A stretch of DNA of 64,000 bases from Pachysolen tannophilus NRRL Y-2460 (taxonomy: Eukaryota): contig KV454011.1 of NCBI GenBank assembly GCA_001661245.1, positions 1,390,724 to 1,454,723 of the forward strand, written 5' to 3'. The notes under the pieces were generated by a model. The model made no database searches. It was given only the letters and a program-made list of their open reading frames with translations, and was not told the origin of the DNA. A program made the translations under genes and the position numbers. Positions 8,206 through 61,338 of the stretch are shown in pieces. Positions within the stretch are counted from its first letter, which is position 1. Each line of letters starts with the position of its first letter.

Positions 8206-9680
8206 GAGGAAGTAGTACCATGGGTAGTACCACAGGTAATTATAGCAGGAAATCGTCACCTAGAAGGAATCTTGGTGCTGTTAATCATGTTACTCGTGAG
8301 ACTACAAAAACAGTGTATGTACCATTGGCTAATGATGATGAAAGGAAAAAACCTTTAAGGAAAGGTACACCTTTAGCTTCTAAAATAATACCTCTTGATA
8401 AAGATGGAGAAGATTCTTCTAAGAATGATAGTGCAGGCGCGGATGTTAATGCGGATGCGGATATAGATACAGAGGATGTTCCTGATGTTCACGCGGTTGC
8501 TTCTTCAATTGTTACAGATAGATTATTGATGGTATCAAAGATACCAACATCTTCAAAGTTATTGGAACTGAATTCCCCCAAAAAAATTGAAATTACTACT
8601 CCAAAAAGAAATAATTCTTCAAATAAGCTTCATATTCATCGTCATAATGATAATATACCGACTATTTCTAAATCAGATTTAACAAAATTAATAACTTCCA
8701 CAGCTGTAAAGACAATTGTTCCTCATAATACTATTCAAAATAATTCAAATTTAAAATTAAAAGCACCTAAATTTCCAATTAATAATAATAATTTTAATAA
8801 TTATAAAAATAAAAGAAATCGTGATGAAGAAGATATTATTAATTTAAGTGATAGACATTTAGATAAAAAAAGGAAAACAGTTTTAGATGTTGAGAGTGAA
8901 TTTGATGATACTTTAGATGAGGAGGATAATGTTGATGATAAAGAAGAAAATCATCATAATTCATTAATACAAACTCCTATTCAAGAAAGAAAAACATCTA
9001 AAATTGAAAATGATGGGAATAATAGTAATAATAATAATAATATTGTAAATATTTCAAATATTAATAATAGGAAAAATGAAACTATTAATTCAAATAAATC
9101 TATTGATATTTCATCAACTTTATCAAAAGCTTCAGTATTTATAAATTTTAAAAGAAAAGAATTAGAAGGACAAAAAAATTCATATTCATCATCTGAAGAA
9201 TTAACTACAAATAGAAAAGATTTAACTTCAATTTCGCATGATGATGATGAGAATCAATTAAAAGAAATAACAGGAGATAAAGGATTATTATATGATTTAA
9301 AAACTACTGGTAAAATATTAAATTTTGAAGATATAGGATATTCTGATAATAATAATACTTTACAAGAAGAAAGTGATGAAGTTATTAATAATGAGAGTTG
9401 TAATGATAATAAAAATATTAGGGACAATTATAAGAAAGAAGTTAATGATAATAGAAATATTCAACTGGAATATTTTAAATTAGAAAAATGGACAATTCAA
9501 AAATGGAATAAATTAATTAAATTTATTAAAATTTTCCAATTAACTAAAAATGAAAAAATTTTAAATTCTAAATTTATTTATAAAGAATTTGGTTGTAATT
9601 ATGAAGAATTAAAATTAAGAATTTTAATATTAAATAAATTTAAACATACAAAGAAGATGATTAGTGGAGAAGTTTTATAA
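7671..9680 (+). CDS. Hypothetical low-complexity protein with multiple CDK consensus sites and a small helical C-terminal domain
   Basis: 669-aa open frame, Asn-rich, seven S/T-P-x-K/R sites; no family recognised. Confidence 0.75.
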
Positions 9681-9806
9681 ATATTTTAATAATGTTGTTG
9701 TATATAATTATTAAATTTATATATATTATTCATTTTTTTTTTTTTTTCTTTTTCTACTGAAGCTGAAGCTGAAAAGAAAAAATAATCAATTTTAAAATAA
9801 AATAAT

Positions 9807-10594
9807 TTAGGTTTTATAGGATTGTGGTTTTTTTTTTTTTTCTTTCAAAAAAACATATAAAAATTTGTTTCTCGTTTCTCTTTTTTTATATGTTGTTGTA
9901 GTTTCACCTAATAGTATATATATTGCTTTTTCCTTTTCTCTCTTTGCTCTAATACCAGCGTATTTTTTATCTGATCTAGCCAATCTTAAAGTTCTGTAAG
10001 CAGTTTGTTCTGGAACAACAACAGCACTTGTAGTAAATTCAGTTTTCTTTTGAACAATTGGGAAAGTTTCAGTAATAGAAACTTGTGCAGCATCTTTACC
10101 TTCACCAGCTTTTTTGAAAACAATCAATTTTGATTGATATTCTTGTAATCTTGAAACATTTGCTTTAAAAGTTTCCTCTGATCTATTCTGACGTCTATGG
10201 TCAACTGCAATACCAACAGTTCTTGCATATTTTGGAGTTAAACCAACAGCTTTTAATTCAGTTAAAGTAAAACCTTTACCTGCTCTAATTTTTCTATTAT
10301 ATTTGATAGTTGGAGCTCTAACAACTGGACGCAATAAATCCAAAGGTCTTGGAGCAATCTTGGCAGACTTGGTGGCTCTAGCTTGTCTTCTAGAAACCTT
10401 CTTACCGGCTTGGTCCAAATGAACTCTAACACGTTCTTGCCAGTGTTTTCTGAAATGATTTTTCAATAATGGTAAATTCTTTGCAATAGCTAAATAAGAA
10501 AAAATAAAAAATAAAAAATAAAGTAGTTAGTATTAAAAATCATCATAATCATAATCATACTCTTCGTCTCATCTCATTTCATTTACATACCCAT
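9807..10594 (-). CDS. RPL13: 60S ribosomal protein L13 (eL13). Exon1 10594-10591, intron 10590-10490, exon2 from 10489; 3' end disrupted by an inversion as assembled
   Basis: ATGG|GTATGT...TACTAAC...TAG|CT gives [22 protein letters not shown]. The canonical tail AEAEAEKKK* lies on the + strand at 9757-9785. Confidence 0.95.
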
Positions 10595-10846
10595 TGTTAA
10601 TTTTTTCTTTTATTGAATTTAATACTACAAAGACAAAAAAAAAATGAATAAATAAAGAATTTTTATAAAACCCTATAATAAAACTGAAAAATTTTTGATT
10701 TTTTCCTCTTTTTTTTCTCTCTCTCTCAAAAAAAAAAAAAATTACAAAAAATTAAAAAGTCGTTCACGCAAATTCAAAAAAATCCGTTTTCTTTTTTCCA
10801 AAATTTTTTTTTTTTATATTAAAAAAAGAAAAAAAAAACTTTTTCG

Positions 10847-10854
10847 CAGTCACA
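10847..10854 (+). promoter_or_regulatory. Homol-D-like element CAGTCACA in the RPL13/RPS16 divergent promoter
   Basis: Exact match to the fungal RP-gene Homol-D box. Confidence 0.55.
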
Positions 10855-10885
10855 AATTCAAACACAACAAAATTCCACTTTTTAG

Positions 10886-10901
10886 TTTCCTAATCGGGAA
10901 A
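10886..10901. promoter_or_regulatory. Mcm1-like site TTTCCTAATCGGGAAA in the RP promoter
   Basis: Fits the TTTCC-N6-GGAAA MADS-box consensus. Confidence 0.55.
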
Positions 10902-11161
10902 CTCCTTTGTCTTGTACCAAAACACAAAAAGTAGTGTGTTTTAATTCCAACTTTTTTTTTGTTTTTTTTTCGTTTTTTTTTACAAAAAAAAAACGAAAAT
11001 TTTTAAAAGGAAAAAAAAAAAACCAAGAAGAAGAACAAGAAGACAAAGAAAGAAAAATTATTATTATTATTAATATTAATATTAACCATTTATATATACA
11101 AAAAAATTAAAGAAATTTTTTTTATTTTTTTTAATAAATTCAGTTTTTGTTAATATAGAAT

Positions 11162-11593
11162 ATGTCAGCTGTTCCAAGTGTTCAAACTTTTGGTAAGAAG
11201 AAGACTGCTACTGCAGTTGCCCATGTTAAAGCAGGTAAAGGTTTAATTAAAGTTAACGGTTCTCCAATTACTTTAGTTCAACCAGAAATTTTGAGACATA
11301 AAGTTTATGAACCTTTATTATTAGTTGGTTTAGATAAATTTGCCAACATCGATATTAGAATCAAAGTTTCAGGTGGTGGTCATGTTTCTCAAGTTTATGC
11401 TATTAGACAAGCAATTGCTAAAGGTTTAATTGCTTATACACAAAAATATGTTGATGAATCAACTAAAAATGAGTTAAAGAAAATTTTCCAATCTTATGAT
11501 AGAACTTTATTAATTGCTGATTCTAGAAGAATGGAACCAAAGAAATTTGGTGGTCGTGGTGCTCGTGCTAGATTCCAAAAATCATACCGTTAA
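11162..11593 (+). CDS. RPS16: 40S ribosomal protein S16 (uS9), intronless
   Basis: [15 protein letters not shown]...[17 protein letters not shown]. Confidence 0.99.
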
Positions 11594-11931
11594 GGGGAAA
11601 AAAGAAAGAAAGGAAGAAGAAGGGAAAAAAAACAGATTTTGGAAATCATCATTACTTATATCATTATTATCAAAATATTATTTGAGTTGTATGTAGTAGT
11701 AATAATAATAGTAGGTAATTGTTACTTAGAAGAAGAAGAAGAAGAAGTGATCAATATATATTAAAATAAAAAAAAATTAAAGATTTAAAAATTAACCATT
11801 TACATTCGCGTAGAAATTATCTAATTTGGTGGTATATTATCTACTAGTATTTTTTTAACAGTAAAAAATATATATGGTGGAAAATGTATAAAAATAATTT
11901 TATTCAATTAAAATACAATATACATAAATCT

Positions 11932-12264
11932 CTAATCGAATAAACCGAATCCCATATCGTCATCTGATTCTTCTTTAGCAGCCTCTTCCTTTTCTTCTTC
12001 AGCTTCAGCAGCAGCCTCACCAGCAGCAGCACCACCAGTTGCACCTGAAGCAGCAACAGAAGCTGGACCACTTGAAAAATTAAAGAAAAAATCCTTCAAG
12101 TTCTTACCTTCTAAAGCTTTAGCATAGATATCAGCCCAAATCTTGTCTGCACCAACTTCAGCATTTGAAAGTAAAGTCATCAACTTATCCGAAGTGATTT
12201 CAATTTCGGAATCAGCTAAAATTAAAGCTGCGTATGATAATGATTGTTCTGTTGTAGCTGACAT
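11932..12264 (-). CDS. RPP1A: 60S acidic ribosomal stalk protein P1
   Basis: [16 protein letters not shown] and C-terminal [13 protein letters not shown]. Confidence 0.95.
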
Positions 12265-12552
12265 TTTTTTTTTTGTTTTTGGTCTTAGCTTAGTTTAATT
12301 AACTAGAGATAATCACGTTTAAGCAAGAGTAAAATATACTATTGCAGACTATTCTGAGGAACCAAAAAGAATAAAAGAAAAGAGAAAAAAAAAAAAAAAA
12401 AAAAAATTTAAAAAAAATTTAATAATAACGTTAAAAATATTACTATTACTATTGTTGATGGAAAAACTACTGGTGAAAAATTTAATGTCTATTTTTTTTT
12501 TTTTTCACCACCAAAAAACACAAAAAGTAGTGCGGAACATAAACAAAACATT

Positions 12553-12870
12553 NNNNNNNNNNNNNNNNNNNNNNNNNNNNNNNNNNNNNNNNNNNNNNNN
12601 NNNNNNNNNNNNNNNNNNNNNNNNNNNNNNNNNNNNNNNNNNNNNNNNNNNNNNNNNNNNNNNNNNNNNNNNNNNNNNNNNNNNNNNNNNNNNNNNNNNN
12701 NNNNNNNNNNNNNNNNNNNNNNNNNNNNNNNNNNNNNNNNNNNNNNNNNNNNNNNNNNNNNNNNNNNNNNNNNNNNNNNNNNNNNNNNNNNNNNNNNNNN
12801 NNNNNNNNNNNNNNNNNNNNNNNNNNNNNNNNNNNNNNNNNNNNNNNNNNNNNNNNNNNNNNNNNNNNNN
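12553..12870. other. Assembly gap (318 N)
   Basis: Run of n characters. Confidence 1.
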
Positions 12871-13687
12871 CTTTTTCCCTTTTTTTTTTTTTTTTTTTTT
12901 TCAGTTTAAAGAAATTAGGTCAAGCAGCCCTAATTCAAATTTATAATATTTATGGAAATTTTTCTTTTTTTTTAACTTTTTTGGATGGTTAGTAAATATT
13001 TACACGATAAAACAAATAGAGTGGGTTATTTTTTTTTTTTTTTTTTTTTTATTAGTTCTACGTTGTCTGCCAAAAATACCAAAAAAGTCAAATCGGGTGA
13101 GTAAAGAAACCAGAAAAAGGGCAAAAATTAGATTTTTTTATGACCTTTTTCTATGCGTGTGTTGTTGCCATGCAAAATAAATCATTGCATATTATTTTCC
13201 TCTTTAAGTAATATTCAGTTAAAAGAAGATGCATTTTTAAGAGTAAGGATTTACAAGGATGGAACACCGAGCAAGAGAATAAATAATATTACTACTACTC
13301 TACTAAAGTAACATAACTAGATATACTTACTTACTTACTACCAATTGAAGTAATAATAATTAACTGGATTAGCTAATAATATACTTAAAATCTCATTTTA
13401 TTATTTTATGAAACTGAACTCCAAAATGCTTACTCCACTTAACAATAAGAATTTGATGTGTTGTGATGTAACTGGACATAATATATTTTAAAAGTTGCTT
13501 ATTATCTTTAATAGTATTATTATTATCATTATATTTTTTTTTTTTTTGCAGATTATGAATATATAAACTAAGTAGAAATTTTTTCTTTCTTTATTTATTT
13601 ATTTATTTTCTTTTGATTTTTAGGTCTATGAACTCAATTGATTGGATTTAGAATTGGCATTTAAAAGGTTTCTTGGTTGTTCTCTTA

Positions 13688-36928: not shown

Positions 36929-39900
36929 TTAATGGCGTGGGCTATTTATGTCTATTGATAATAACGACATTGACTCATCCTCTGCTTCATTTTGTGCTGA
37001 GTTCGAAGTACTCAAGTTATCAATAGATGTATAGATATCATTCTGTTTGAAAGTAGGAACAATAATTCCAATCCCATCACTATCTTGTTGATGATTAGAA
37101 TTGAAACTATTTCCAAATCCAGTTAAAGTTCTTGACTTCAGGTGACGATCAGGTTGATTGAACTTATTCAGTCTGAAATACAAATCCTGTTGTGTGTCAA
37201 CACCGTTGCTAATGCCTTCTTCAACGCCTTCACCAGAAAATGGGTTATTGGAAAATGTTGTATACACAGAAGGACCAACAGTACTTGAAATAATATCTGC
37301 AAAAGGATTATCTCCATTGTTGTTATTGGAAAGCTTTTTGGCTAAAGACATAGAAGTATCTGAGCTCAGAGGAAGTTTGTCTTTTATATTGTCTTCACTA
37401 TTGATATAATCAGAAATAAAGACCATCGATGGCTTATGATATATTTCCTCTCCAAAATTAATTCCAAGACCATCGAAGTCAGAAGAGGCTGCATCGACTA
37501 GTTGCGTAAACTTACCTTTTTTGAATCTCCAACGACATATGACAGCTTTCAAAGTATCATAAACTTTCTGTTTTTTCAATTCTTTATCAACTTTATCCAT
37601 TTCAACATAACGCTTCATGAAATCATCCAAGGTTAAACATTTATTTTCTTCAAACTGAGAATATAACGCTATTTTGAGAATTGTTCTTGTGAAAGAAATA
37701 CCAGGCTCTTCATACAACATCATATCAGTTAATAGCTCTTGGTATAATCTTTCAAACTTCAACCTTCTAATTTTTACCAAGTTAGTATCTATGGACAGTA
37801 ATGAACTTTCCATAGCGGCAAAATCAATGAATATATCGTAAGAAATATCAGAGCCCGTATCTTTGAACCACTGATCTTTTAATTCTCGTATACTAAACCT
37901 TCCATCATTGTATATTTTATAGGACAATACACCATTGAGAGAACCTAAAAATTTAGGTAAATCCAGAGGATCAATGTAACCTGTTCCATCTGGATCAAAA
38001 GTTAACCAGCATTCTTTAAATTTCCTGATTTCATTTCTTGTGATTAATGAGTGAGGACCCGAAGCATGGTAAACATAACTGAAACTATCAACAGTTAAAG
38101 AAACGAACATATTCAAAAAAATGAACATTGATACAATATTCCATGAAATGAACAAAACGTAAGCATAAGCTTCATTACCACAGTCACTGTCATATATGGA
38201 ATCGGAAGAAACACAGAATGGCAGTTGAACAGCAAAATCTTTCATAATGTAATTCCAGCCTTCTCCAAAACTCATTTTGAATAATAAAATTAGGGCCTTT
38301 GTTACTGTCCTCAAATTAATGTTATTTGATGTATTCGCACCAATTCTAGTTAATCCAAAGATCTGGTTCATAGCAATAGCGAAGACCAAAAATAAGATTC
38401 CCCAAGTAAAAAGAAGAGAAAGCAATGATGGCAAACTGGCAGATGCAAACCTTAATAATTGGTTTAACCTGTCTATCTTTGGAATAATGAAAAATAAAAT
38501 ACCGACTAAGAACAACTTATTGAAGTTCGCATATACTGTTTGTCTTGAAACAAAGAAGGAAATAAAAGAAGTTGAAAATGCCCCAAATATAACGAAAAAC
38601 CTGAACCAGTTCCATTTGTTTTTAAAAAACAATACGAAACCTCTTGCATACATACTGACAAATAAAGAAAGCAAAAATGCTGAGGAAGTCATTAGGTATA
38701 TGATGTATCTAGTTTCATCTAATCCCGAAATTGTTGGATAAACTTCCAATAACAATGCTAATGTATGGATTATCAACAAAAGATTGGTACCAATTCTCCA
38801 ATATATGTTTCTTTCCACAACAAGTTTGTGACAAAATAATTTCAATTTCGAATAACCATCAATATTACCTCTTTTTGAAGCCTTTATTTGTTTTAGTATT
38901 TTTTCGACCTCGTACCACGCACTCTGTTCTGATGTTAAATAAGCTCTACCAGTTGTTCTTGAGTAATTATTAATGATGACTGAGACAAATAAAGTCAAAA
39001 TAAAGACAATACTAAGGAAATTGAAAAGTACAATATATATAGCGTTGACTGGCGTTGCAAAAGTACTTGGAACAGTCCCGACTCCCGTGCTATTCATTAA
39101 ATTTTCTAGTAAATCAACCCAACCCTCCAAGGAAACAATTTCGAATAAAGTTAAAAACGATGGGAAAAAGCTGTTAAACGCTAATTGTGGGTTCACGTAA
39201 ACATTTGGGCTTACAATATCCCATTTGAATATCTCATTTGTATACTCACTGTGACATTCCGACTTGACCGAAGTACCATCTAAGCAATAACCTAGTCTTC
39301 CATTGAAAATATTGAGACCCCAAATGGCAAAAGGAAGCAATAAAGATAACGATATGGTTGAAGCACCCAATATCTTCCAAAAACCAGATATAATTGTATT
39401 TTGGAAAGTAGATTTTGCCCTAGAGCTTAAGCTTAATAATCTCAAAGCTCTTAAAGCTTTAAAACCATTAACAATTCTGGAGACATTTGTTGCATTCTTC
39501 AAAGATGCAATAACATCAATCCAAAGTGAAATCAAAACTATAGCATCAATAATATTCCAAGCTGATATTAAGTAAGCATTTGGAGTAAAAATTAAACCGT
39601 CCGCTACAACTTTTATCACAAATTCAAAGGAAAACAACAAAGTAAAACCAAGATCAAAATATATAGTCCAGTTCCAACTCTCATCAAATAAATCATGTTC
39701 TTTACGATATAATGGTGTAGTGTAACAGGCCATAATAACCATCAGAACAGTGACAAGAAACATAATGATGCTAAACAAATCACTGACTGCCTTATTGGGC
39801 TCAACCCCATCAATCCTATCACCATAGGATGAAGGTACTAGTTTTTGGCACAGTTTTCTCACTCGATGATTTGGAGGGAATAAATAAAAAACGGTATTGA

Positions 39901-42900
39901 AAGAAGGATTTTTCTGCAAATATTTCGTTTGCTCTTCGACAATTTCGTGATTTCTGTCAATAATACCTCTTACAGCTGTACCTAAATCTTCTTCAGCTTC
40001 TTGAATATCCTTGAACCGGTAATGACCAGCTTTAGAAGCGTTAGAAGAAAAAAAGGGATTCGACCTAAATATATCATAAAATACTTTGATTTTTGAAGCT
40101 GCACCACTATAATACGGCACTTTTGAAATCCATTTATTTGCAGCAATAATCTTAGGCTTTTTCAATCCTGAAGAACTCTTTTCTTTTTCATTTCCAATTT
40201 TGTTGAAGCCTTTCACTTTTCCATTCAACAATAAATACAAAATTTCCTCTTTCGTATTCTCAGCATTAGTGACATTATTATTTTTTCTCAACGTGATCCT
40301 CTCTTTAAAATCAGAAAATACACTTCTTTCAGGGTCCTTGGTCAATTCACTTTTCAAATTCTTTAAATACTGTTGAATTTGTTCATTTCTCTTATCTGTT
40401 TCCGAAATTTCTAAATTTTCAGCAATGACAGCAATGAAAATGTTTAAAATAATAAAATTCGAAAAAATGAACCACATGATTATATATGCCGCGCCAAAAA
40501 ACTTCAGCGATTTATTTTTGGCATATTGCTGGACAATATATAAAATAGATGACCAATTTTCAGTTGAAGTAACAGTATATAGCGAAATGAATACATTTGG
40601 TAATGTGTACATTCCCAACGGATTATCAGACATTTCAGATTCTGGCACTATCCCTTCAAAAAATCTTGACATGATAACACTAACTAAAAAAAGGAATATG
40701 AAGTAAAATAAGGACAAATCAAAAACTGTTCTGAAATTACCCAAAACTTTAATCCAAGTATTCTTAGTATAAGTGAAAAATAAAACGACACGGTAAAATC
40801 TTGAAATCTGGAAAGCAGTTAACCAGAAATAAGCATGACCCAACCTGCTATGTACAATAGGTATCACTATAATGCTCGTAATAACAGCCAAAAATAAGTC
40901 AAAAATATTTTTTCTGGAATAGAAAAAATTTCGCCAATGTGGAAGAAAACAGCAAAATCTTAATACTATTTCAAATAGTAAAATCAAGGTTACCGCACTT
41001 TCAAACTTGTACAAAGTCTTTATTTCGGTGCTACTTGAATTCTCATTCCTAGTACATTGCACAATTAAATCCACAACTATAATTAGTAGAAAAACCCATT
41101 CGAATTTATAGTACCATTTTAAAAATGGTAATTTCTTTTTCAAGTCATTATATAAGAATTCTTTTTTCCAATTTTTAATGCTGAACACTTTTTTTTTTTG
41201 TGACAATTTTTGTTGTTCAGAAATTTCATCTCTTGTTATCTTAAATGCAGTAACAATAACTGCAACTAATAAATTCACTAACCAAACTGTTAAGAAAAAA
41301 ACTCCAAATATGAAAAACAAGGAAGAAGCTAAAGTATCACTATCCATAGTATAATACATTATATCTGTAAAAGTATTGGCACTCATAACAACAAATACTA
41401 ATTCAAATGAATTTGCAATATTATCGAAACTCATAGTATTACCATATGGATTGGTATTAGAGACACATTTGGAATACACAGGGCATCTGTAGCCCTTGAT
41501 TTCTCCAGATGATGTACCATCTGCAAAAATGTAAGCCTTAGCTTCTGATGTAGTTGCATCAATGTAACTACCGCAAAATTGAAAATCATTAACATAATAA
41601 TCTGATGGATCATCTGGGTCATACCATACACACTGTCTTCTTAGTGAAGATTTAAATGACTGAACCCCAATAATTGCAAAAAAAATCCAAAAACTTATTA
41701 TGAAAAACGAAATATCCACCAATTCAGGTGCAGCTTTTTTCAAAGCTCTTAAGATTGTTAATGTACCATGTGTCAAATTAGTTAACCTCAAAATTCTTAA
41801 ACACATTAAAGATCTGAATAATGTGATATGATGTTTCAAATCATATTGTTTGAACGAAAGAAAGAACGAAAGCCAAAATGATAAAGTTGAAACAAAATCA
41901 ACTCTGTTCCAACTACTTCTCAAAAATGCTCTACTGACTGGAACTCCAGTTGCAGCCTCTTCTTTCAAATTATGTAAAGTCACTGAATGTACAGGCTTTT
42001 TAGGTCTTTCTTGAAAAATCTTCATATCATCGTTTAATAGGTTGAAACCTTTCTTAATATCTTTTGATAAATTTTTATCACCATCTACCATTGTTCTATT
42101 ACGTAATCTTTTGAAAGTCCATTTGAAATATTTTTCCCAAACTACATTTGGCTTATATTCCAAATTTAATTCTTCATACATTTGGGAATCATCAACTAGA
42201 CCAAAAGTTATTATTTTCATCATGACTTCAATTGTATAAAATACATTAACAAATACTAAAACCCAATCTACCCAGGTATACTTTCCATTATAGACGTAAC
42301 CTCTAGAATATGGATTCCATTGTTGATAAACTAGTACTACAGTTTGTAATAATGTGAATTGCAAAACTACTGGATCAAACCAATTTTTCAAAATTATTGA
42401 TGCACATCTTAATCTTAATCTATTTCTTGGACCAAAATATTTCAATGAGTTACCAAATAAACGAATACCTTCCAATCCTGAATATCTTCTATTTGTATTA
42501 TTTATATTTGTATTGATTTCATTAGGTTCGTTTATTGTATGACGATTTGCAGAATTAAAGGAAAATGTATCTTCTTCACTGGCTGGAGATTCTTGGCGAG
42601 AAGATGTAAAAGTCATAACAGATTCTTCTTCTAAAGGTTCATCAGTAGAGTTATAATCAAAACTTGTTGAATTTTTTTGATTTGAATTGATACCCAATAA
42701 TTGTTCATCATTATCATCTTTACCATTGAACCTCGCTGTAAATTTTTTCAAAGCAATTGAAATCTTTCTTCTTGGAGTAGTTGAAGGTAATTTCCCGTCA
42801 TCTTCATGTTCTCTTATCTTCAAGCCATGCTCTAGATCGCCTGGAAATCGAACATGATTCTCATTATCAGAATAGCCTCTAGAAAGAATAGAAGACTTTG

Positions 42901-42940
42901 CCGACACATTATTATTATTATTATTATTATTATTGTTAAT

Positions 42941-42975
<35 letters not shown>

Positions 42976-43957
42976 TGTGGTTATTTGCGGATGAAGTCGT
43001 GACCATCAAGTATTCAGGGTATGATGGCACCTTCAAATTAACCGGCGAGCGTAAATCATCTAATTTTATTCCTTCTTGTTCTGGTTCATCAATATTACTT
43101 CGTGTTTCATTTCCACTTTTCGTAGATGATATTATATCTTCTGAACCACTTCCTGTCAGAGCGCTTCGAGGAGAACTTACCGGTAACCACATACCTTCAT
43201 TCTCATTACCTCCACTTCCTAAAGCAGCGGTTAACCCTTTATCCAAAACGTCTATATCTGCATCTTCCAATAAATTTGAAGAATGGAAAGATTCAACACT
43301 CCTGTTACCAACGCTGCTATCATCATCCAGCTCATTTACGGATAATGAACCTTTTGAGTTTTTAGAACGTCTTTTCGATGGAACAGATGAACCAGACCAA
43401 CTCAAATTATCTGAAGTATTATTATTATTGTTATTATTATTACGACTACCACTGTTGCCTCCTCCTGATTTGTGAATTTTACTGAAAAACGATGAAGTTG
43501 GAGATTTTGCAGTCAAATAACTAGTATTCTCAGCAGCTGCATTTGGACTTAAAAGAAAAGGTGAATTCAACAGGCTATTGTTTTTGGCATTTGTTGTGAA
43601 ACTATTGGGTGTAGCAGCCAAGTTTGATGTGTCTATCTTCAATCCTGGTGCTTTTTTAAATTTTTTTTGACGTTCTTTTCTTTCTGATTCAGAATCCATC
43701 GTCAGCGCTGTTGGTGGTGGGGATGTTTGAACCGTTCTTTCTGAAATCGCGGACCCTGCCGATGACCCTGCCGAAGGCCCCGCCGTGGTGGTCCCTTCTG
43801 CTGCCGACGAAGATGAAGTGGGAAGGTGAACCGTTGTTGATTCATGCTCTTGTACTGAAAATGTCGGAAGATTCAGTATCTCCTTATCAAATGAACTTCT
43901 TTCACCAGTCCCGTTTCCCTTCCCCTTCCCCTTCTCATCACTACTATCACTACTCAT
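36929..43957 (-). CDS. CCH1: High-affinity calcium channel Cch1 (four-domain)
   Basis: Four 6-TM repeats with pore loops MSANTF, TSTENW, VSLEGW, SFGEGW (N-E-E-E) and an EF-hand-like FDPDGTGYI. Confidence 0.97.
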
Positions 43958-45177: not shown

Positions 45178-46540
45178 CTTTCCAGTTATGTGATGTGTTT
45201 ACTAACTTTAGGTGTTGATTATCTTAGACGGTTATAAAAAAGTCTCAGAGGAGCCACAGAGACAAATTCATCAGGTAAACCCATATGGTCCAAATCCTGC
45301 TGATTTTTTATCAAATGTTGGAAATTTTCAGTTGATTGAATCGACTTTAAGAGAAGGTGAACAATTTGCCAATTCTTTTTTTTCTACAGAGAAAAAAATT
45401 GAAATAGCTAAAGCTTTAGATGATTTTGGGGTTGATTATATTGAGTTAACTTCTCCAGTTGCTTCTGAACAATCTAGAAGTGATTGTGAGGCTATTTGTA
45501 AATTGGGACTAAAAGCCAAAATCTTGACACATATTAGATGTCATATGGATGATGCTAGAGTTGCTGTTGAAACAGGTGTTGATGGTGTTGATGTTGTTAT
45601 TGGTACTTCTCAATTTTTAAGACAATATTCTCATGGTAAAGATATGAACTATATTGCTCAATCTGCTGTAGAAGTTATTGAATTTGTTAAATCCAAAGGA
45701 ATTGAAATTAGATTTTCTTCTGAAGATTCTTTTAGATCTGATATTGTTGATTTATTGAATATTTATAAGACAGTGGACAAAATCGGAGTTAACAGGGTTG
45801 GTATTGCAGATACAGTTGGTTGTGCTAATCCAAGACAAGTTTATGAGTTGGTCAAAACTTTAAAATCTGTTGTTCATTGTGATATTGAATGTCATTTCCA
45901 TAACGATACAGGTTGTGCTATTGCCAATGCTTATACTGCTTTAGAAGCTGGTGCAAGACTTATTGATGTTTCTGTATTAGGAATTGGTGAAAGAAATGGT
46001 ATCACTCCATTAGGAGGACTTATGGCTAGAATGATTGCCGCTGATAGAGATTATGTCTTGTCAAAATATAAATTACATAAGTTAAGAGATTTGGAAAATT
46101 TGGTTGCTGAAGCAGTTCAAGTGAATATTCCATTTAACAATCCAATTACTGGTTTCTGTGCTTTTACTCATAAAGCAGGTATTCATGCAAAAGCTATATT
46201 AGCTAATCCATCAACTTATGAAATTTTAAAACCATCAGATTTTGGTCTTACAAGATATATTCATTTTGCAAACAGATTAACTGGATGGAACGCTATCAAA
46301 TCAAGAGTTGATCAATTGAATTTGAATTTAACAGATGAACAATGTAAAGAAGTTACCACCAAAATTAAAAAAATGGGAGATATTAGACCTTTGAATATTG
46401 ATGATGTTGATTCCATCATCAAAGATTATCATACTGATATCTCAACACCTAAATTGAGAGCTAACAATACTACTACAGAAGTAGAAGTTGATGAATTAAA
46501 TGAAGTTTCTGAAGCTAAAAGACAAAAAACAGAGGCTTGA
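45118..46540 (+). CDS. LYS21: Homocitrate synthase; exon1 45118-45127, intron 45128-45227
   Basis: [42 protein letters not shown]...TACTAAC...TAG|AC GGT is in frame. Confidence 0.96.
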
Positions 46541-56124: not shown

Positions 56125-59100
56125 ATGGATGCAAGCACTTTATCTGGAAATAATGATTCATTCAAACTACAGATCTTAGGATACGACTCATACCAATTCT
56201 ATCCTTCGTTGTTGGATAGAACGAGTTCAAGCATCTCCACCTTGAAGAAGCATCACTATCAAACCAAATCATCTTTCAATCAAGTTCCAGTTATAAGAGT
56301 ATTTGGAAAGTTAACTACAGGTCACTCGATTCTTTTAAACGTTCATAATGTTCTTCCTTATTTCTTTATTGAGTATAAGGGAGAATTATCAGAATCTTGT
56401 ATCAAACAGACATTAACTGATTTAAAATTACAATTAGAGAAAGCTTTATATTTTTCTTTTAAGAAAGGAAGAAAGAAACCGGGAAAGAACAATAGACCTA
56501 TTGATGACGATCATGGAGATATAGAAGAGTTTGATGATCAAATTTTCAACGACTATACAAATGAAGAAGGTGATGACGTTTCAAGTTATAGAGACAGGTA
56601 CATTGCATCTTTACAGTTGATAAAATCGATACCTTTTTATGGGTATCATATTGGATATAGACCATTTATTAAGATAAATTTATTGAATCCATTGTACTTG
56701 AGAAGATTATCCAATTTGTTATCAGAGGGAAAAGTGAATGATAAAGTTATTCAACCATATGAGTCTCATGTTCCTTATTTATTACAATTTTTAACTGATT
56801 ATAATTTATTTGGTTGTGATTGGCTTTATTTAGATGAATGGTTATGGAGGAGCCCAATAATAAATAACAACAGTAATAATTTAGATATTGATGATGATCG
56901 ATTGATTATTGATCAAGAAGAAACTGAGTTGTTTAACAAACTTAAGCTCACAGACGATTTAAAAGCTTTCTTGAAAAATAATATTAAGAAAAACAAGTTT
57001 GATGATAATTTAAACATTTTATCAGAAGATCAATTTTCAAGAATTGGTAATACTTTTTTGGAAATTGACTGTTTGCCCCAGTGGATTTCAAATAGGAAAA
57101 AAATAACAACTAGGGATTTGCATCAAGACTTTATCGAGTTATTTAATAATTTAAATAATAGCAATAGCAAGTTTCGAATTGATAAAACTAAATATTTAAA
57201 TTCGACTAAAGATATTTTGAAAGATATTTTACATCAACGGAAATTGAAGAATCTAGATGATTCACAAGTTTATTTGAATAAGTTTTCTTTAACCCAAGAT
57301 TCTGAAGAAAGGATTTATGATGGACACACAAATTGGATAGAGCAAGATGAATTGGAGGATTTACTCAAACATTGCATAGATTTATCCAAAGAAGAATGGG
57401 AAAGATTAAATGCGCTGAAAAATGTTCAAAACGATGTCAAATTAGAAGGATTTCATAGGAATCCCAAAATCTTTGATAATATACCAACTGCATTTCAATG
57501 TATTGAAAACGAATTGTATGACAATATTATATGGGATGACTTCAAATTTATTAATCAAGTTAATAGCAACGACGATGACATACTCCATATAAACAGCTCG
57601 GTGATTTCTGATAATCATACTAATGGCGATAGCGATAAAAGTAATAGCGATAGTAGCCTGAAGTCACTGATGAAAGTTTCAATTCTTGATAATAACAACG
57701 ATTTTATTTCATCTGGTGAAGAAGAGGAAGAAACCGATGAAAATTTAGACTACGGAGATGATGATAATTGGATGGGGACGGTGCCACCTCATAAATCGCA
57801 AATATTCTTGGACGATGAAGAGGTAGACGAATATGATGATGATAAAGACGATAAAGATAATAAGGTTGATAAAGACGGAAATGGAAATAACACATCGACT
57901 CGATTGGGAGATTCTACTTTTGAGGAAATTGAAAAGAATTTTTTTGGTCAAAATGAGAAAAGTACGAAGATGCTGTCAAATATCTTGAAATCCAGCTCAA
58001 GAATCTCTCTATCTTCTGATCCTTTAGATCAAAGCATTCATAATGATTCAGAAATAGCTTTGCCCGAAAATAATATCTTTAAAAATTTCTCTTTACAGGA
58101 ATCAGATATAACTGGCAATAGTGATAGATTTACGGATAAAGCTGATGAAACATCGATTTTGGTTGAATCAGGTTTGAAGTTACCTAAGAACTCTGAAAGT
58201 GCCAAATGGTTTGAGTTTCAGACTGGTTATGAATTACCTTCCTTGACATGTGCCAATATTTCCATGGAAGAAAATTTCCTAAATTCATTGGAAAAAGACT
58301 TCAAAATACCCAAAATTGAATATGACGATCCATTTTATTCTGATAGAGGAGATTTACCTCCCAAACCGTTTATATTTGCAGGCAAAAAGTTTGTACTTCA
58401 AGCGAAACATGTTGATTATTTGCCAAAAGTTGAAGATGGTGGAATTCCAATTAGCTATTTAATCAAAGAATTTATGATCAATAAAACCAATAGAAAAGCT
58501 ACAAAAGTAAAAGCACTGAAAACAGCGACATTTTGTTATCTTCCTGAGATGCCTTCAATAGAGGAAGTTTCAAAATGGAGTAAGGTTAATAGTATTGAAA
58601 ATGATACCAAGCAAAGAAAATCAGTATTATATAAATCACAGGTTGAACAGCGTACACAATCATTAGAATATGGATTTAAGTATCCGTCAATTAAATTAAA
58701 ATATCAAAGGAAACCAAATAATTTGGGTAAATTAATTTGCTTTGCGGTAGAATTACATATAAATACAAGAGATGACTTGAAGCCAGATCCAAGCAAAGAT
58801 GAAATTACTGCTATTTTTTGGAAATTTGATAAAATACATTTCCCGTATGATTTGGATATAGCTGAAAACGGGATATTGATATTAAACACTGATTTGCGTA
58901 ATGAAGAACAAGAATTAAGTTTTAGTAAAAAATTGAATAATACTAGCAATACCCCAATAGCTATATTCAATGATGAGGTATCAATGGTAAAAGAATTAAT
59001 TTCATTGGTAAAGCTAATTGATCCTGATATATTGGCAGGATTTGAAATCCATTCATTATCTTGGGGATACATAATAGAACGATTTAGAAAAATATATTTG

Positions 59101-61338
59101 GTTGATATTTGTGCCATGCTATCAAGAGTCAACTATAAATATAACAATAAGGTAAATGATAGATGGGGATATAACCATGCTTCTGGTATAAAAATCTCAG
59201 GAAGACACATGCTAAATATTTGGAGAGGTTTGAGACATGAAATAAATTTATTGAAATATTCCATTGAAAACATCTGCTATCATACTTTGCATAGACGAAT
59301 ACCACATTATCCAGAAAAGCAACTAACTGAATGGTTCAGAAGTGGTATACCAAATCAAATCTCGATTGTTTTAAATTATTACACACAGCGACTTTCGTTG
59401 GATTTAGAGATTATTGAAAATCAAGAAATGATAACTAAAACAGTTGAGCAATCACGACTAATAGGAATTGATTTTTATTCAATACTATCGAGAGGCTCTC
59501 AATTCAAAGTTGAAAGTTTTTTGATAAGATTAACAAAGTCTGAAAATTTTATATTGATTTCCCCTAGTAAAAAACAAGTCTTTAAATCGGATGCCTTACA
59601 ATGCATTCCTTTGATTATGGAGCCAGAAAGTGCTTATTATAAAAGTCCATTAGTTGTATTAGATTTTCAGTCTTTATATCCAAGTATCATCATAGCTTAT
59701 AATTACTGTTATTCCACAGTTTTAGGTAGATTACGCGGCTTTGATGCAAGGAAACCACAAACTATTGGTGTAACCAAAAATAAATTACCCGCTGGATTAC
59801 TAGAGTTATTGAAGGATTATATCACAATTTCTCCAAATGGATTGATCTATGTCAATGAAACTGTTAGGAAATCTTCATTAGCAAAAATGTTGACTGAAAT
59901 CTTAGAGACCAGAATTTTGGTTAAAGATACGATGAAGATTGCCGATGACGACTATGAGTTGAAAAAGTTGTACAATAGCAGACAGTTAGCCTTGAAGTTA
60001 ATTGCCAATGTAACTTATGGCTATACCTCCGCAACATTTTCAGGCAGGATGCCTTGTGCTGATATTGCAGATAGTATAGTATCAACGGCCAGGGAAACGT
60101 TGAATAATTCCATCAAGGAAATTGCGGGAAACAAGGATTGGGGAGCACAAGTGGTTTACGGTGATACTGATTCTTTATTTATATATCTTCCAGGAAAAAC
60201 AAGACAAGATGCTTTTAGAATTGGTAATGAGATGGCAGACTTTATAACTTCAAAAAATCCTAAACCAATAAAATTGAAATTTGAAAAAGTATACCATCCC
60301 TGTTTATTGGTCAGTAAAAAAAGATATGTCGGCTACAGCTATGAAAATGAAAATCAATTAGTTCCAAAGTTTGATGCAAAAGGAATCGAAACTGTAAGAA
60401 GAGATGGTATACCAGCTCAACAGAAAATGGTGGAGAAATCATTGAGGTTATTATTTGAGACTAATGATTTATCATTAGTTAAAAAATATGTCCAAGATCA
60501 GTTTGTCAAAATCATGAACAATAAAATATCTATTCAGGATCTTTGTTTTGCAAAGGAAATCAAAGTTGGTACTTATAAAGATGAGAGATATATACCAGCT
60601 GGAGCAAACTTGTACCAAAAGTTAATGGAGGTGGATTCACGACTGGAACCACAATATGCAGAGAGATTGCCGTATGTAGTATTAAAATCATACAAAGGTA
60701 AAAACTTACGAGATAGATGTGTCACACCTTTGTATTTTATTGAGAATGAGATCAAGGAAAATTTACAGTTGGACCATGAATACTATATTACAAAGACGTT
60801 GATTCCACCTTTAGAAAGAATTTTCAATTTAATCGGTGCCGATGTCAAACAATGGTATAGAGAGTTACCAAAAATTATAAGATTTGATTTCAATAATAAT
60901 ATTCTAAATGGCAATAAGAGAAGGAGAGCGTCACAAATGAATAACAATAATGGGATACATTATTTTATCAAATCAATGAATTGTTTGTCTTGCTTTAAGA
61001 ATATTTCAAACAACAAAATGCTATGCGAGGAATGTATTAAAGATGAGCTCTCAACAATTTTGAAATTGAATAAAGAAGTTTCAAATACCGAGAGAACATT
61101 TGCAAATATTTTAATGATTTGTAGATCTTGTTCTTCAAGTTTTGGTGCGGATGGTGATACCAGTAATATCTATACGAACGGGAATCGTAAGAAAAGATTA
61201 ATTTCAGATGATTTAGAAAGTGGGTGTAAATGTAATAGTGATGACTGTCAATTGTACTATTCAAGAATTAAGTTAGAAAAACGATTAAACAAGGTTTACG
61301 GTATAAAAGATGTTATTATGGATGAATTGGATTGGTAA
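56125..61338 (+). CDS. REV3: DNA polymerase zeta catalytic subunit
   Basis: SRGSQFKVES, LDFQSLYPS, KLIANVTYGYT, YGDTDS, GIETVRRD and C-terminal Cys clusters. Confidence 0.98.
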   Translation: MDASTLSGNNDSFKLQILGYDSYQFYPSLLDRTSSSISTLKKHHYQTKSSFNQVPVIRVFGKLTTGHSILLNVHNVLPYFFIEYKGELSESCIKQTLTDLKLQLEKALYFSFKKGRKKPGKNNRPIDDDHGDIEEFDDQIFNDYTNEEGDDVSSYRDRYIASLQLIKSIPFYGYHIGYRPFIKINLLNPLYLRRLSNLLSEGKVNDKVIQPYESHVPYLLQFLTDYNLFGCDWLYLDEWLWRSPIINNNSNNLDIDDDRLIIDQEETELFNKLKLTDDLKAFLKNNIKKNKFDDNLNILSEDQFSRIGNTFLEIDCLPQWISNRKKITTRDLHQDFIELFNNLNNSNSKFRIDKTKYLNSTKDILKDILHQRKLKNLDDSQVYLNKFSLTQDSEERIYDGHTNWIEQDELEDLLKHCIDLSKEEWERLNALKNVQNDVKLEGFHRNPKIFDNIPTAFQCIENELYDNIIWDDFKFINQVNSNDDDILHINSSVISDNHTNGDSDKSNSDSSLKSLMKVSILDNNNDFISSGEEEEETDENLDYGDDDNWMGTVPPHKSQIFLDDEEVDEYDDDKDDKDNKVDKDGNGNNTSTRLGDSTFEEIEKNFFGQNEKSTKMLSNILKSSSRISLSSDPLDQSIHNDSEIALPENNIFKNFSLQESDITGNSDRFTDKADETSILVESGLKLPKNSESAKWFEFQTGYELPSLTCANISMEENFLNSLEKDFKIPKIEYDDPFYSDRGDLPPKPFIFAGKKFVLQAKHVDYLPKVEDGGIPISYLIKEFMINKTNRKATKVKALKTATFCYLPEMPSIEEVSKWSKVNSIENDTKQRKSVLYKSQVEQRTQSLEYGFKYPSIKLKYQRKPNNLGKLICFAVELHINTRDDLKPDPSKDEITAIFWKFDKIHFPYDLDIAENGILILNTDLRNEEQELSFSKKLNNTSNTPIAIFNDEVSMVKELISLVKLIDPDILAGFEIHSLSWGYIIERFRKIYLVDICAMLSRVNYKYNNKVNDRWGYNHASGIKISGRHMLNIWRGLRHEINLLKYSIENICYHTLHRRIPHYPEKQLTEWFRSGIPNQISIVLNYYTQRLSLDLEIIENQEMITKTVEQSRLIGIDFYSILSRGSQFKVESFLIRLTKSENFILISPSKKQVFKSDALQCIPLIMEPESAYYKSPLVVLDFQSLYPSIIIAYNYCYSTVLGRLRGFDARKPQTIGVTKNKLPAGLLELLKDYITISPNGLIYVNETVRKSSLAKMLTEILETRILVKDTMKIADDDYELKKLYNSRQLALKLIANVTYGYTSATFSGRMPCADIADSIVSTARETLNNSIKEIAGNKDWGAQVVYGDTDSLFIYLPGKTRQDAFRIGNEMADFITSKNPKPIKLKFEKVYHPCLLVSKKRYVGYSYENENQLVPKFDAKGIETVRRDGIPAQQKMVEKSLRLLFETNDLSLVKKYVQDQFVKIMNNKISIQDLCFAKEIKVGTYKDERYIPAGANLYQKLMEVDSRLEPQYAERLPYVVLKSYKGKNLRDRCVTPLYFIENEIKENLQLDHEYYITKTLIPPLERIFNLIGADVKQWYRELPKIIRFDFNNNILNGNKRRRASQMNNNNGIHYFIKSMNCLSCFKNISNNKMLCEECIKDELSTILKLNKEVSNTERTFANILMICRSCSSSFGADGDTSNIYTNGNRKKRLISDDLESGCKCNSDDCQLYYSRIKLEKRLNKVYGIKDVIMDELDW

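What the first reader, a model, noticed from the sequence alone, without database searches (positions are those of the whole stretch)
9757..9925. 169-bp inversion flips the RPL13 C-terminus and 3' UTR onto the opposite strand
Seen: RPL13 (minus strand) reads ...KREKEKA and then drifts into an aberrant 38-aa tail. The expected ending CT GAA GCT GAA GCT GAA AAG AAA AAA TAA (AEAEAEKKK*) is on the PLUS strand at 9757-9785. Reverse-complementing 9757-9925 restores an in-frame canonical eL13 end. The breakpoints share only 1 bp of microhomology and have no flanking inverted repeats. Inference: either an assembly or chimeric-read artefact (more likely) or a real micro-inversion altering a ribosomal protein.
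Basis: seen in the sequence. Interest (0 to 1): 0.7.

Follow-up and report, generated by a model that had tools for sequence, protein, structure and literature searches.

The report
Misassembled flip in yeast RPL13 end
The last nine codons and the 3' untranslated region of a yeast ribosomal protein gene really do lie backwards in this draft assembly, but contigs built from public read sets show the normal order, so it is most likely an assembly error and not biology.

Summary
The window matches the public draft assembly of Pachysolen tannophilus NRRL Y-2460. Its eL13/RPL13 gene, on the minus strand, loses homology after ...KREKEKA and runs into a 38-aa unrelated tail. The missing end, EAEAEKKK plus stop, lies on the plus strand at 9759-9785. 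Reverse-complementing 9757-9925 (equally 9758-9924) gives an in-frame eL13 of normal length.

The flip is probably not real. I laid Logan contigs of four public runs, from two samples and two studies. In three runs, one contig holds 9828-9925 in plus orientation, then 38 letters, then 9717 down to 9300 in minus orientation. That is the un-inverted order, in which 9925 abuts the reverse complement of 9756. In the run from the second sample, a contig also leaves the window exactly at 9925.

The junction next to the coding sequence could not be seen, and only contigs, not raw reads, were available. No inverted repeats flank the breakpoints, and the displaced coding remnant is undecayed. My estimate is about 0.85 for a local misassembly, which the deposited protein model inherited. 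Interest is low, apart from correcting a reference record.

The parts
10591..10594 (-). RPL13 (eL13) exon 1, ATGG (Met plus the first base of codon 2)
   Evidence: ATGG followed by GTATGT, located at 10594 on the minus strand (sequence).
10490..10590 (-). RPL13 5' intron (101 nt): GTATGT donor, TACTAAC branch site at 10532-10526, acceptor tag at 10492-10490
   Evidence: Read; motif positions. The splice is inferred from consensus signals and from the homologues' N-termini MAI[SA]KNLP; no RNA data.
9926..10489 (-). RPL13 exon 2, the part collinear with homologues, ending ...KREKEKA
   Evidence: PDB eL13 chains align to query residues 1-188; 474 homologues with E <= 0.001, carrying Pfam PF01294.
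9757..9925 (+). The 169-bp segment that lies in reverse orientation in the assembly (equivalently 9758-9924)
   Evidence: Reverse-complementing it restores the frame. Contigs of runs X1, X2 and X4 place 9828-9925 in opposite orientation to 9300-9717, 38 letters apart; the X5 contig leaves the window at 9925.
9757..9785 (+). Displaced true end of the RPL13 coding sequence: last two bases of an Ala codon, EAEAEKKK, and the TAA stop
   Evidence: Translation; homologue termini.
9786..9925 (+). Displaced RPL13 3' untranslated / terminator region, with a T14 run at 9828-9841
   Evidence: Position relative to the displaced stop codon. Function is inferred; no RNA run was available.
9807..9925 (-). 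Spurious 38-codon tail plus stop, created by reading the flipped 3' UTR in the gene's frame
   Evidence: No homology to any eL13 chain beyond residue 188.
9718..9756 (.). Left flank, including the T15 run at 9733-9747. In the read-derived contigs it directly follows 9925 as its reverse complement, and is one base shorter there
   Evidence: 38 letters lie between the two laid pieces where the window has 39. Runs located.

Best explanation
The window comes from the public draft scaffold assembly of the yeast Pachysolen tannophilus NRRL Y-2460. In that assembly a 169-bp piece was inserted backwards. The piece holds the last nine codons, the stop codon and the 3' UTR of the eL13 ribosomal protein gene, the only eL13 gene of this organism that the protein search returned. 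The organism's DNA, as represented in contigs built independently from public read sets, has the ordinary orientation, so the real gene encodes a normal 198-aa eL13 ending in the conserved acidic-then-lysine tail. The 38-aa tail and the deposited protein model that carries it are products of the misassembly.

Shown: the flip in the assembled sequence, and the canonical distal junction in read-derived contigs. Inferred: that the proximal junction is canonical too, and that no appreciable fraction of molecules carries the flipped form. Unknown: which step of assembly or gap closure produced the flip.
For: (1). In runs X1, X2 and X4 a single contig (records 1, 7, 13; 1680-1681 nt; depths 134, 56, 96) holds window 9828-9925 on the plus strand at record positions 5-102 (6-103). 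It holds window 9717 down to 9300 on the minus strand at record positions 141-558 (142-559). Both pieces have 0 differing letters, and 38 letters lie between them. The window order would put both pieces on one strand, 110 nt apart. The observed geometry is what results if 9757-9925 is reverse-complemented, so that 9925 is followed by the reverse complement of 9756..9718 (39 nt in the window).

(2), run X5 (another sample and study). A 139-nt contig holds 9828-9925 at positions 4-101 and then runs on for 38 letters without aligning to 9926 onward. A 1570-nt contig holds 9300-9717 and ends 30 letters later. This fits two adjacent k=31 unitigs of the same canonical path.

(3) No laid contig runs collinearly across 9925|9926 (tables 5 and 8).

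(4) The displaced remnant is intact. Its nine codons plus stop equal the exact C-terminus of 33 of 119 homologues. The flip is therefore either not real or extremely recent.

(5) No inverted repeats exist that could mediate a biological flip.

(6) The sequence is a draft. A 318-N gap lies 2.6 kb away. Passages of PMC13232491 list the assembly as scaffold level, with contig N50 in the 10^4 bin. Its 2.51-Mb longest scaffold matches the 2,514,465-bp contig of protein P0001.
Against: The junction next to the coding sequence (9926 joined to 9757) was not observed. No contig was laid on 9956-10500, and 9718-9785 was masked as repeat, so contigs supporting the assembled junctions could have been hidden.

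The 38 letters between the two pieces were not printed, so their identity with 9718-9756 rests on geometry and on a length that differs by one.

The data are contigs, which drop rare variants, so a minority flipped form is not excluded.

X1, X2 and X4 are one sample, possibly the assembly's own source, which leaves effectively two independent samples.

The breakpoints do not coincide with the homopolymer runs or any repeat, so I cannot name a mechanism by which an assembler would produce this flip.

A crude look at 25 long ORFs found no second such flip in the window, so there is no sign of a systematic artefact.
Confidence: 0.85

Rival explanations
1. A real, very recent micro-inversion fixed in the particular isolate or subclone whose DNA gave the assembly. 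It would arise from two breaks rejoined with 1 bp of microhomology, or from a replication template switch. The result would be an eL13 with its last 8 residues replaced by 38 new ones and with a foreign 3' UTR.
For: The assembled sequence and the deposited protein model both carry it. The breakpoints lie in unique sequence with 1 bp of ambiguity, which is typical of end joining and is not an obvious assembler failure point. The proximal junction was not seen in the read contigs.
Against: Contigs from four runs of two samples show the canonical distal junction at full contig depth and with 0 differing letters in the flanks. Those samples are therefore the same or a near-identical strain without the flip. 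The gene is an essential-class ribosomal protein gene, and only one copy from this organism was found among 474 hits.
Confidence: 0.07
2. Both orientations coexist in the culture, as a polymorphic or switching segment, and the assembler picked the minor one.
For: This species does have an invertible region elsewhere: its MAT locus, 8 kb flanked by 2-kb inverted repeats (passages of PMC6692504). Contigs drop rare variants, and the parts where a flipped-form contig would lie were masked or left out.
Against: No inverted repeats flank this segment, so no recombination substrate exists. The canonical contig passes through the junction unbroken in three runs, whereas two abundant forms would make the graph branch there (inference from how de Bruijn contigs are built). 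Inverting a ribosomal protein's stop codon has no evident regulatory logic.
Confidence: 0.05
3. There is no rearrangement at all: the plus-strand EAEAEKKK* is a chance match and the long tail is the true lineage-specific C-terminus.
For: The genome is 29% G+C, and A-rich low-complexity strings such as GAA/AAA repeats are common.
Against: 'EAEAE' occurs once in all six frames of 64 kb, and it sits exactly where restoring the flip puts it in frame. The read contigs independently show the segment in the other orientation.
Confidence: 0.01

Closest known systems
Local misassembly (small inversion) in a draft short-read scaffold assembly
   Same: A short segment is reversed relative to the reads, in a draft with gaps nearby (318 N at 12553-12870). 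It lies in AT-rich sequence with long homopolymers (T15, T14) whose lengths vary between contigs (table 4). The gene model downstream is corrupted.
   Different: The breakpoints are not at repeats, homopolymers or contig ends, so the usual causes (a flipped unitig between repeats, a palindrome collapse) do not explain them. The cause remains unknown.
Real micro-inversions by end joining or replication template switching (known from comparative genomics; recalled, no paper read here)
   Same: The size class (about 170 bp), 1 bp of microhomology, and no flanking repeats.
   Different: Read-derived contigs from two samples lack it, and the displaced coding remnant shows no decay.
Flip/flop MAT inversion of Pachysolen tannophilus (passages of PMC6692504)
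   Same: The same organism, with a DNA segment that can exist in two orientations.
   Different: The MAT region is 8 kb and is flanked by 2-kb inverted repeats. This segment is 169 bp with no flanking inverted repeats, and it is not at a MAT locus: none of the 25 long ORFs scanned with Pfam matched a mating-type family.
Eukaryotic ribosomal protein eL13 (Pfam PF01294), budding-yeast type
   Same: 73-76% identity to yeast eL13 proteins over the collinear part. It has a 5' intron after ATGG, and once the segment is turned it ends in the conserved tail.
   Different: As assembled, nothing differs except the flipped end.

Membership tests
eL13 / Ribosomal_L13e (PF01294) | Full-length sequence homology to eL13 | tested here: met
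   E 4.3e-85 to a PDB 60S L13 chain, query 1-188 against chain 3-193; 474 homologues with E <= 0.001, precomputed Pfam PF01294.
eL13 / Ribosomal_L13e (PF01294) | Conserved yeast C-terminal tail (EAEA... followed by lysines), read collinearly on the gene's strand | tested here: not met
   As assembled the tail is absent from the minus strand and lies on the plus strand at 9759-9785. It is met only after the segment is turned. 110 of 119 homologues have EAEA in their last 14 residues.
Assembly micro-inversion artefact | Read-derived sequence contradicts the assembled order at the distal breakpoint (9925) | tested here: met
   records 1, 7 and 13 (X1, X2, X4) hold 9828-9925 (+) and 9717-9300 (-), 38 letters apart. 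X5 record 25 leaves the window at 9925.
Assembly micro-inversion artefact | Read-derived sequence contradicts the assembled order at the proximal breakpoint (9926 joined to 9757) | not testable with these tools
   9718-9785 was masked as repeat and nothing was laid on 9956-10500.
Assembly micro-inversion artefact | No reads support the assembled junctions | tested here: inconclusive
   One search lists no contig collinear across 9925|9926, but contigs holding the conserved coding sequence may have been left out, and raw reads were not available.
Repeat-mediated invertible segment (flip/flop switch) | Inverted repeats flanking the invertible segment | tested here: not met
   the best reverse-complement match near the junctions is 13 nt of (TA)n type, reached by 7 of 300 shuffles, and it is not at the breakpoints; no bracketing pair among the 25 longest of 181.

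The most novel reading that the evidence does not exclude
The flip is real in at least part of the sequenced culture. It would be a repeat-independent 169-bp micro-inversion that swaps the conserved C-terminal tail and terminator of an essential ribosomal protein for a 38-residue neo-tail and is nevertheless tolerated. That would give a natural test of how dispensable the eL13 C-terminus and its native 3' UTR are.
Probability: 0.07. Interest if true: 0.45.

Novelty: not a real feature. Interest (0 to 1): 0.1.

Why it matters
It matters mainly as a correction to a public reference. The deposited eL13 protein of Pachysolen tannophilus NRRL Y-2460 (P0001, 214 aa) has a false C-terminus caused by this flip. 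It also has a false N-terminus, because the gene model starts inside the intron. Anyone using this record for ribosomal protein phylogenies, for proteomics of this CUG-Ala yeast, or for training gene finders inherits those errors.

It also shows that small, repeat-free inversions can sit unnoticed in draft assemblies. They can be spotted from a conserved gene end lying on the wrong strand. If, against the evidence, the flip were real, it would be a rare natural truncation and replacement of a ribosomal protein tail.

Tried and rejected
1. Whole-genome search for a second RPL13 copy or other flips: no genome is held for this window.

2. RNA evidence: no RNA holder was listed among the 7 runs. 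This says nothing about expression.

3. Coverage gaps: depth is 0 over 9751-9791 and 9956-10500, and nothing was laid on 9786-9815. I do not use these as evidence.

4. Share of sampled words: 0.94 for X1-X4 and 0.93 for X5. Loss of the two junctions alone would give about 0.95 (58 of 1171 words), but homopolymer length differences would give similar numbers, so this does not discriminate.

5. Logan-derived proteins: the protein search returned no read-derived Pachysolen eL13 in either form, only the deposited model. This is uninformative.

6. Metagenome scan with 36 bases of the segment (9890-9925): 0 matches.

7. Earlier findings of this scan: none for this genome.

8. Assembly method: the two genome papers (Riley et al. 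2016, Liu et al. 2012) are not held, so I could not learn which assembler or gap-closing step was used. The supplements of PMC4937558, a proteomics study based on the other assembly, could not be read. They might contain an eL13 C-terminal peptide or model.

9. Search for a second flip: Pfam scan of 25 long ORFs. The only N-terminally truncated domain (homocitrate synthase, first ATG at 45545) has a frame open back to 45212 with no ATG. That looks like a short 5' exon plus an intron, not an inversion.

10. Inverted or direct repeats as a cause: a 7-nt direct repeat CTTTTTC lies at 9748-9754 and 9926-9932 (read), and a (TA)n match is described above. Neither is at the breakpoints or above chance.

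Full report
WHAT IS THERE

The window is AT-rich (28.8% G+C). Its eL13 frame is 99% identical over 93% of its length to the deposited protein PACTADRAFT_14613 of Pachysolen tannophilus NRRL Y-2460. That protein lies on a 2,514,465-bp contig. Passages of PMC13232491 list assembly GCA_001661245.1 of that strain as 12.60 Mb, scaffold level, with a longest scaffold of 2.51 Mb and contig N50 in the 10^4 bin. The window itself holds a 318-N gap at 12553-12870. I infer that the window is a piece of that draft.

THE GENE

RPL13 (eL13) lies on the minus strand.
- Exon 1 is ATGG at 10594-10591.
- A 101-nt intron follows, with a GTATGT donor, TACTAAC at 10532-10526, and the acceptor at 10492-10490.
- Exon 2 starts at 10489. 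The splice is inferred from signals and from the homologues' N-termini.

The gene sits back to back with an S9/S16-family ribosomal protein gene (11162-11593, +). A 60S acidic ribosomal protein gene (11932-12264, -) follows that.

THE OBSERVATION

- Solved eL13 chains align to the frame only up to ...KREKEKA. That is query residue 188, which is residue 193 of 202 in the best chain.
- After that come 38 unrelated residues and a stop at 9807-9809.
- On the plus strand, 9759-9785 reads EAEAEKKK*. G at 9926 with CT at 9757-9758 makes the preceding Ala codon.
- Reverse-complementing 9757-9925 shortens the exon-2 frame from 226 to 196 codons. This gives a 198-aa protein, within the 197-202 aa range of most homologues.
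- 'EAEAE' occurs only once in all six frames of the 64 kb.
- Of the 119 listed homologues other than the organism's own model, 110 carry EAEA in their last 14 residues and 33 end in exactly the nine residues restored here.
- The segment's bounds are ambiguous by one base pair, so it is 9757-9925 or 9758-9924.
- No inverted repeat brackets it.

IS THE FLIP IN THE DNA OR ONLY IN THE ASSEMBLY?

One search for public runs found five that hold 93-94% of the sampled words of 9300-10500. Four are from one sample and study, and one is from another sample and study. None is on record as RNA. I laid Logan contigs of X1, X2, X4 and X5 on 9300-10500.

In each of X1, X2 and X4 one contig of 1680-1681 nt contains two pieces:
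- window 9828-9925 in plus orientation (record positions 5-102 or 6-103);
- 38 letters later, window 9717 running down to 9300 in minus orientation (record positions 141-558 or 142-559).

Neither piece has any differing letter. In the window these two pieces lie on the same strand, 110 nt apart. In the contigs they are on opposite strands, in the order expected if 9925 is followed by the reverse complement of 9756..9718. That is the un-inverted, canonical arrangement. The window has 39 bases there against 38 in the contigs. The stretch includes a T15 run, so a one-base length difference is unsurprising, but I could not see the letters because the tool masks 9718-9785 as repeat.

In X5, the independent sample, the path is split in two.
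- A 139-nt contig holds 9828-9925 and then 38 further letters that do not align to 9926 onward.
- A 1570-nt contig holds 9300-9717 and ends 30 letters later.

This is what two neighbouring k=31 unitigs of the canonical path would look like. The tool reports that one loose end was dropped at the masked repeat in X5.

No listed contig crosses 9925|9926 collinearly with the window.

LIMITS

- The proximal junction (coding sequence joined to 9757) was not observed. Nothing was laid on 9956-10500, which the tool's description warns can happen for conserved genes. A contig supporting the assembled order could therefore have been hidden as well.
- These are contigs, not reads, so a minority form cannot be excluded.
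- Three of the four runs are one sample, which may be the assembly's own source. If so, that strengthens the case that the error arose in assembly, but it reduces independence.
- I cannot say how the flip arose, because the breakpoints are in unique sequence and not at the T15 or T14 runs. The papers describing the assemblies are not held.

OTHER CONSIDERATIONS

- The displaced coding remnant is perfectly intact, so a real event would have to be very recent.
- There is no recombination substrate of the kind this species uses at its invertible MAT region, which has 2-kb inverted repeats (passages of PMC6692504).
- The deposited gene model looks like an ab initio fit to the faulty sequence. It starts at an ATG at 10572 inside the intron. 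It ends with a mini-exon CTT CAG TAG at 9762-9754 that straddles the left breakpoint.
- A crude screen of 25 long ORFs found no second case in the window.

VERDICT

The most likely explanation, at about 0.85, is a local misassembly in the draft reference, propagated into the deposited protein. A real inversion in the assembled isolate gets about 0.07, and coexisting orientations about 0.05. Interest is low (0.1). The practical value is a flagged error in a public record. Counting junction-spanning raw reads, or one PCR, would settle it.

Noticed in passing
window 9754-9866 and 10489-10594: The deposited protein model for this gene (P0001, 214 aa) is wrong at both ends. It starts MRRR from an ATG at 10572 inside the true 5' intron, not from ATGG at 10594. 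It ends ...FLY+LQ through a predicted intron (donor after 9855) into a mini-exon CTT CAG TAG at 9762-9754 that straddles the left breakpoint.
   Followed up: partly
window 9828-9841 and 9733-9747: The homopolymer lengths are uncertain. A small contig of run X1 carries four extra T at the T14 run (table 4). The read-derived contigs have 38 letters where the window has 39 across the stretch with the T15 run.
   Followed up: no
window 12553-12870: A 318-N scaffold gap lies 2.6 kb from the finding and is flanked by long A/T runs (A22 at 12385, T22 at 12880). The sequence is a draft.
   Followed up: no
window 45212-46540 (+): A homocitrate synthase gene whose first ATG (45545) cuts off Pfam HMGL-like profile positions 1-74. 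The frame is open back to 45212 without an ATG. The likely structure is a short upstream exon plus an intron, not a frameshift or an inversion.
   Followed up: partly
window 10591-12264: Three cytosolic ribosomal protein genes are clustered: eL13 (-), an S9/S16-family protein (+, divergent from eL13, with about 570 bp between the two start codons), and a 60S acidic P protein (-). From memory, the same three genes are neighbours in baker's yeast. This was not tested here.
   Followed up: no
window 36929-43957 (-) and 56125-61338 (+): Two very long intact ORFs. One is a 2342-aa four-repeat Ion_trans channel (voltage-gated calcium-channel type). The other is a 1737-aa family-B DNA polymerase with a weak (below-cutoff) REV3_N match (polymerase zeta type). 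Read with the CUG=Ala code, they hold 14 and 6 CUG codons.
   Followed up: no
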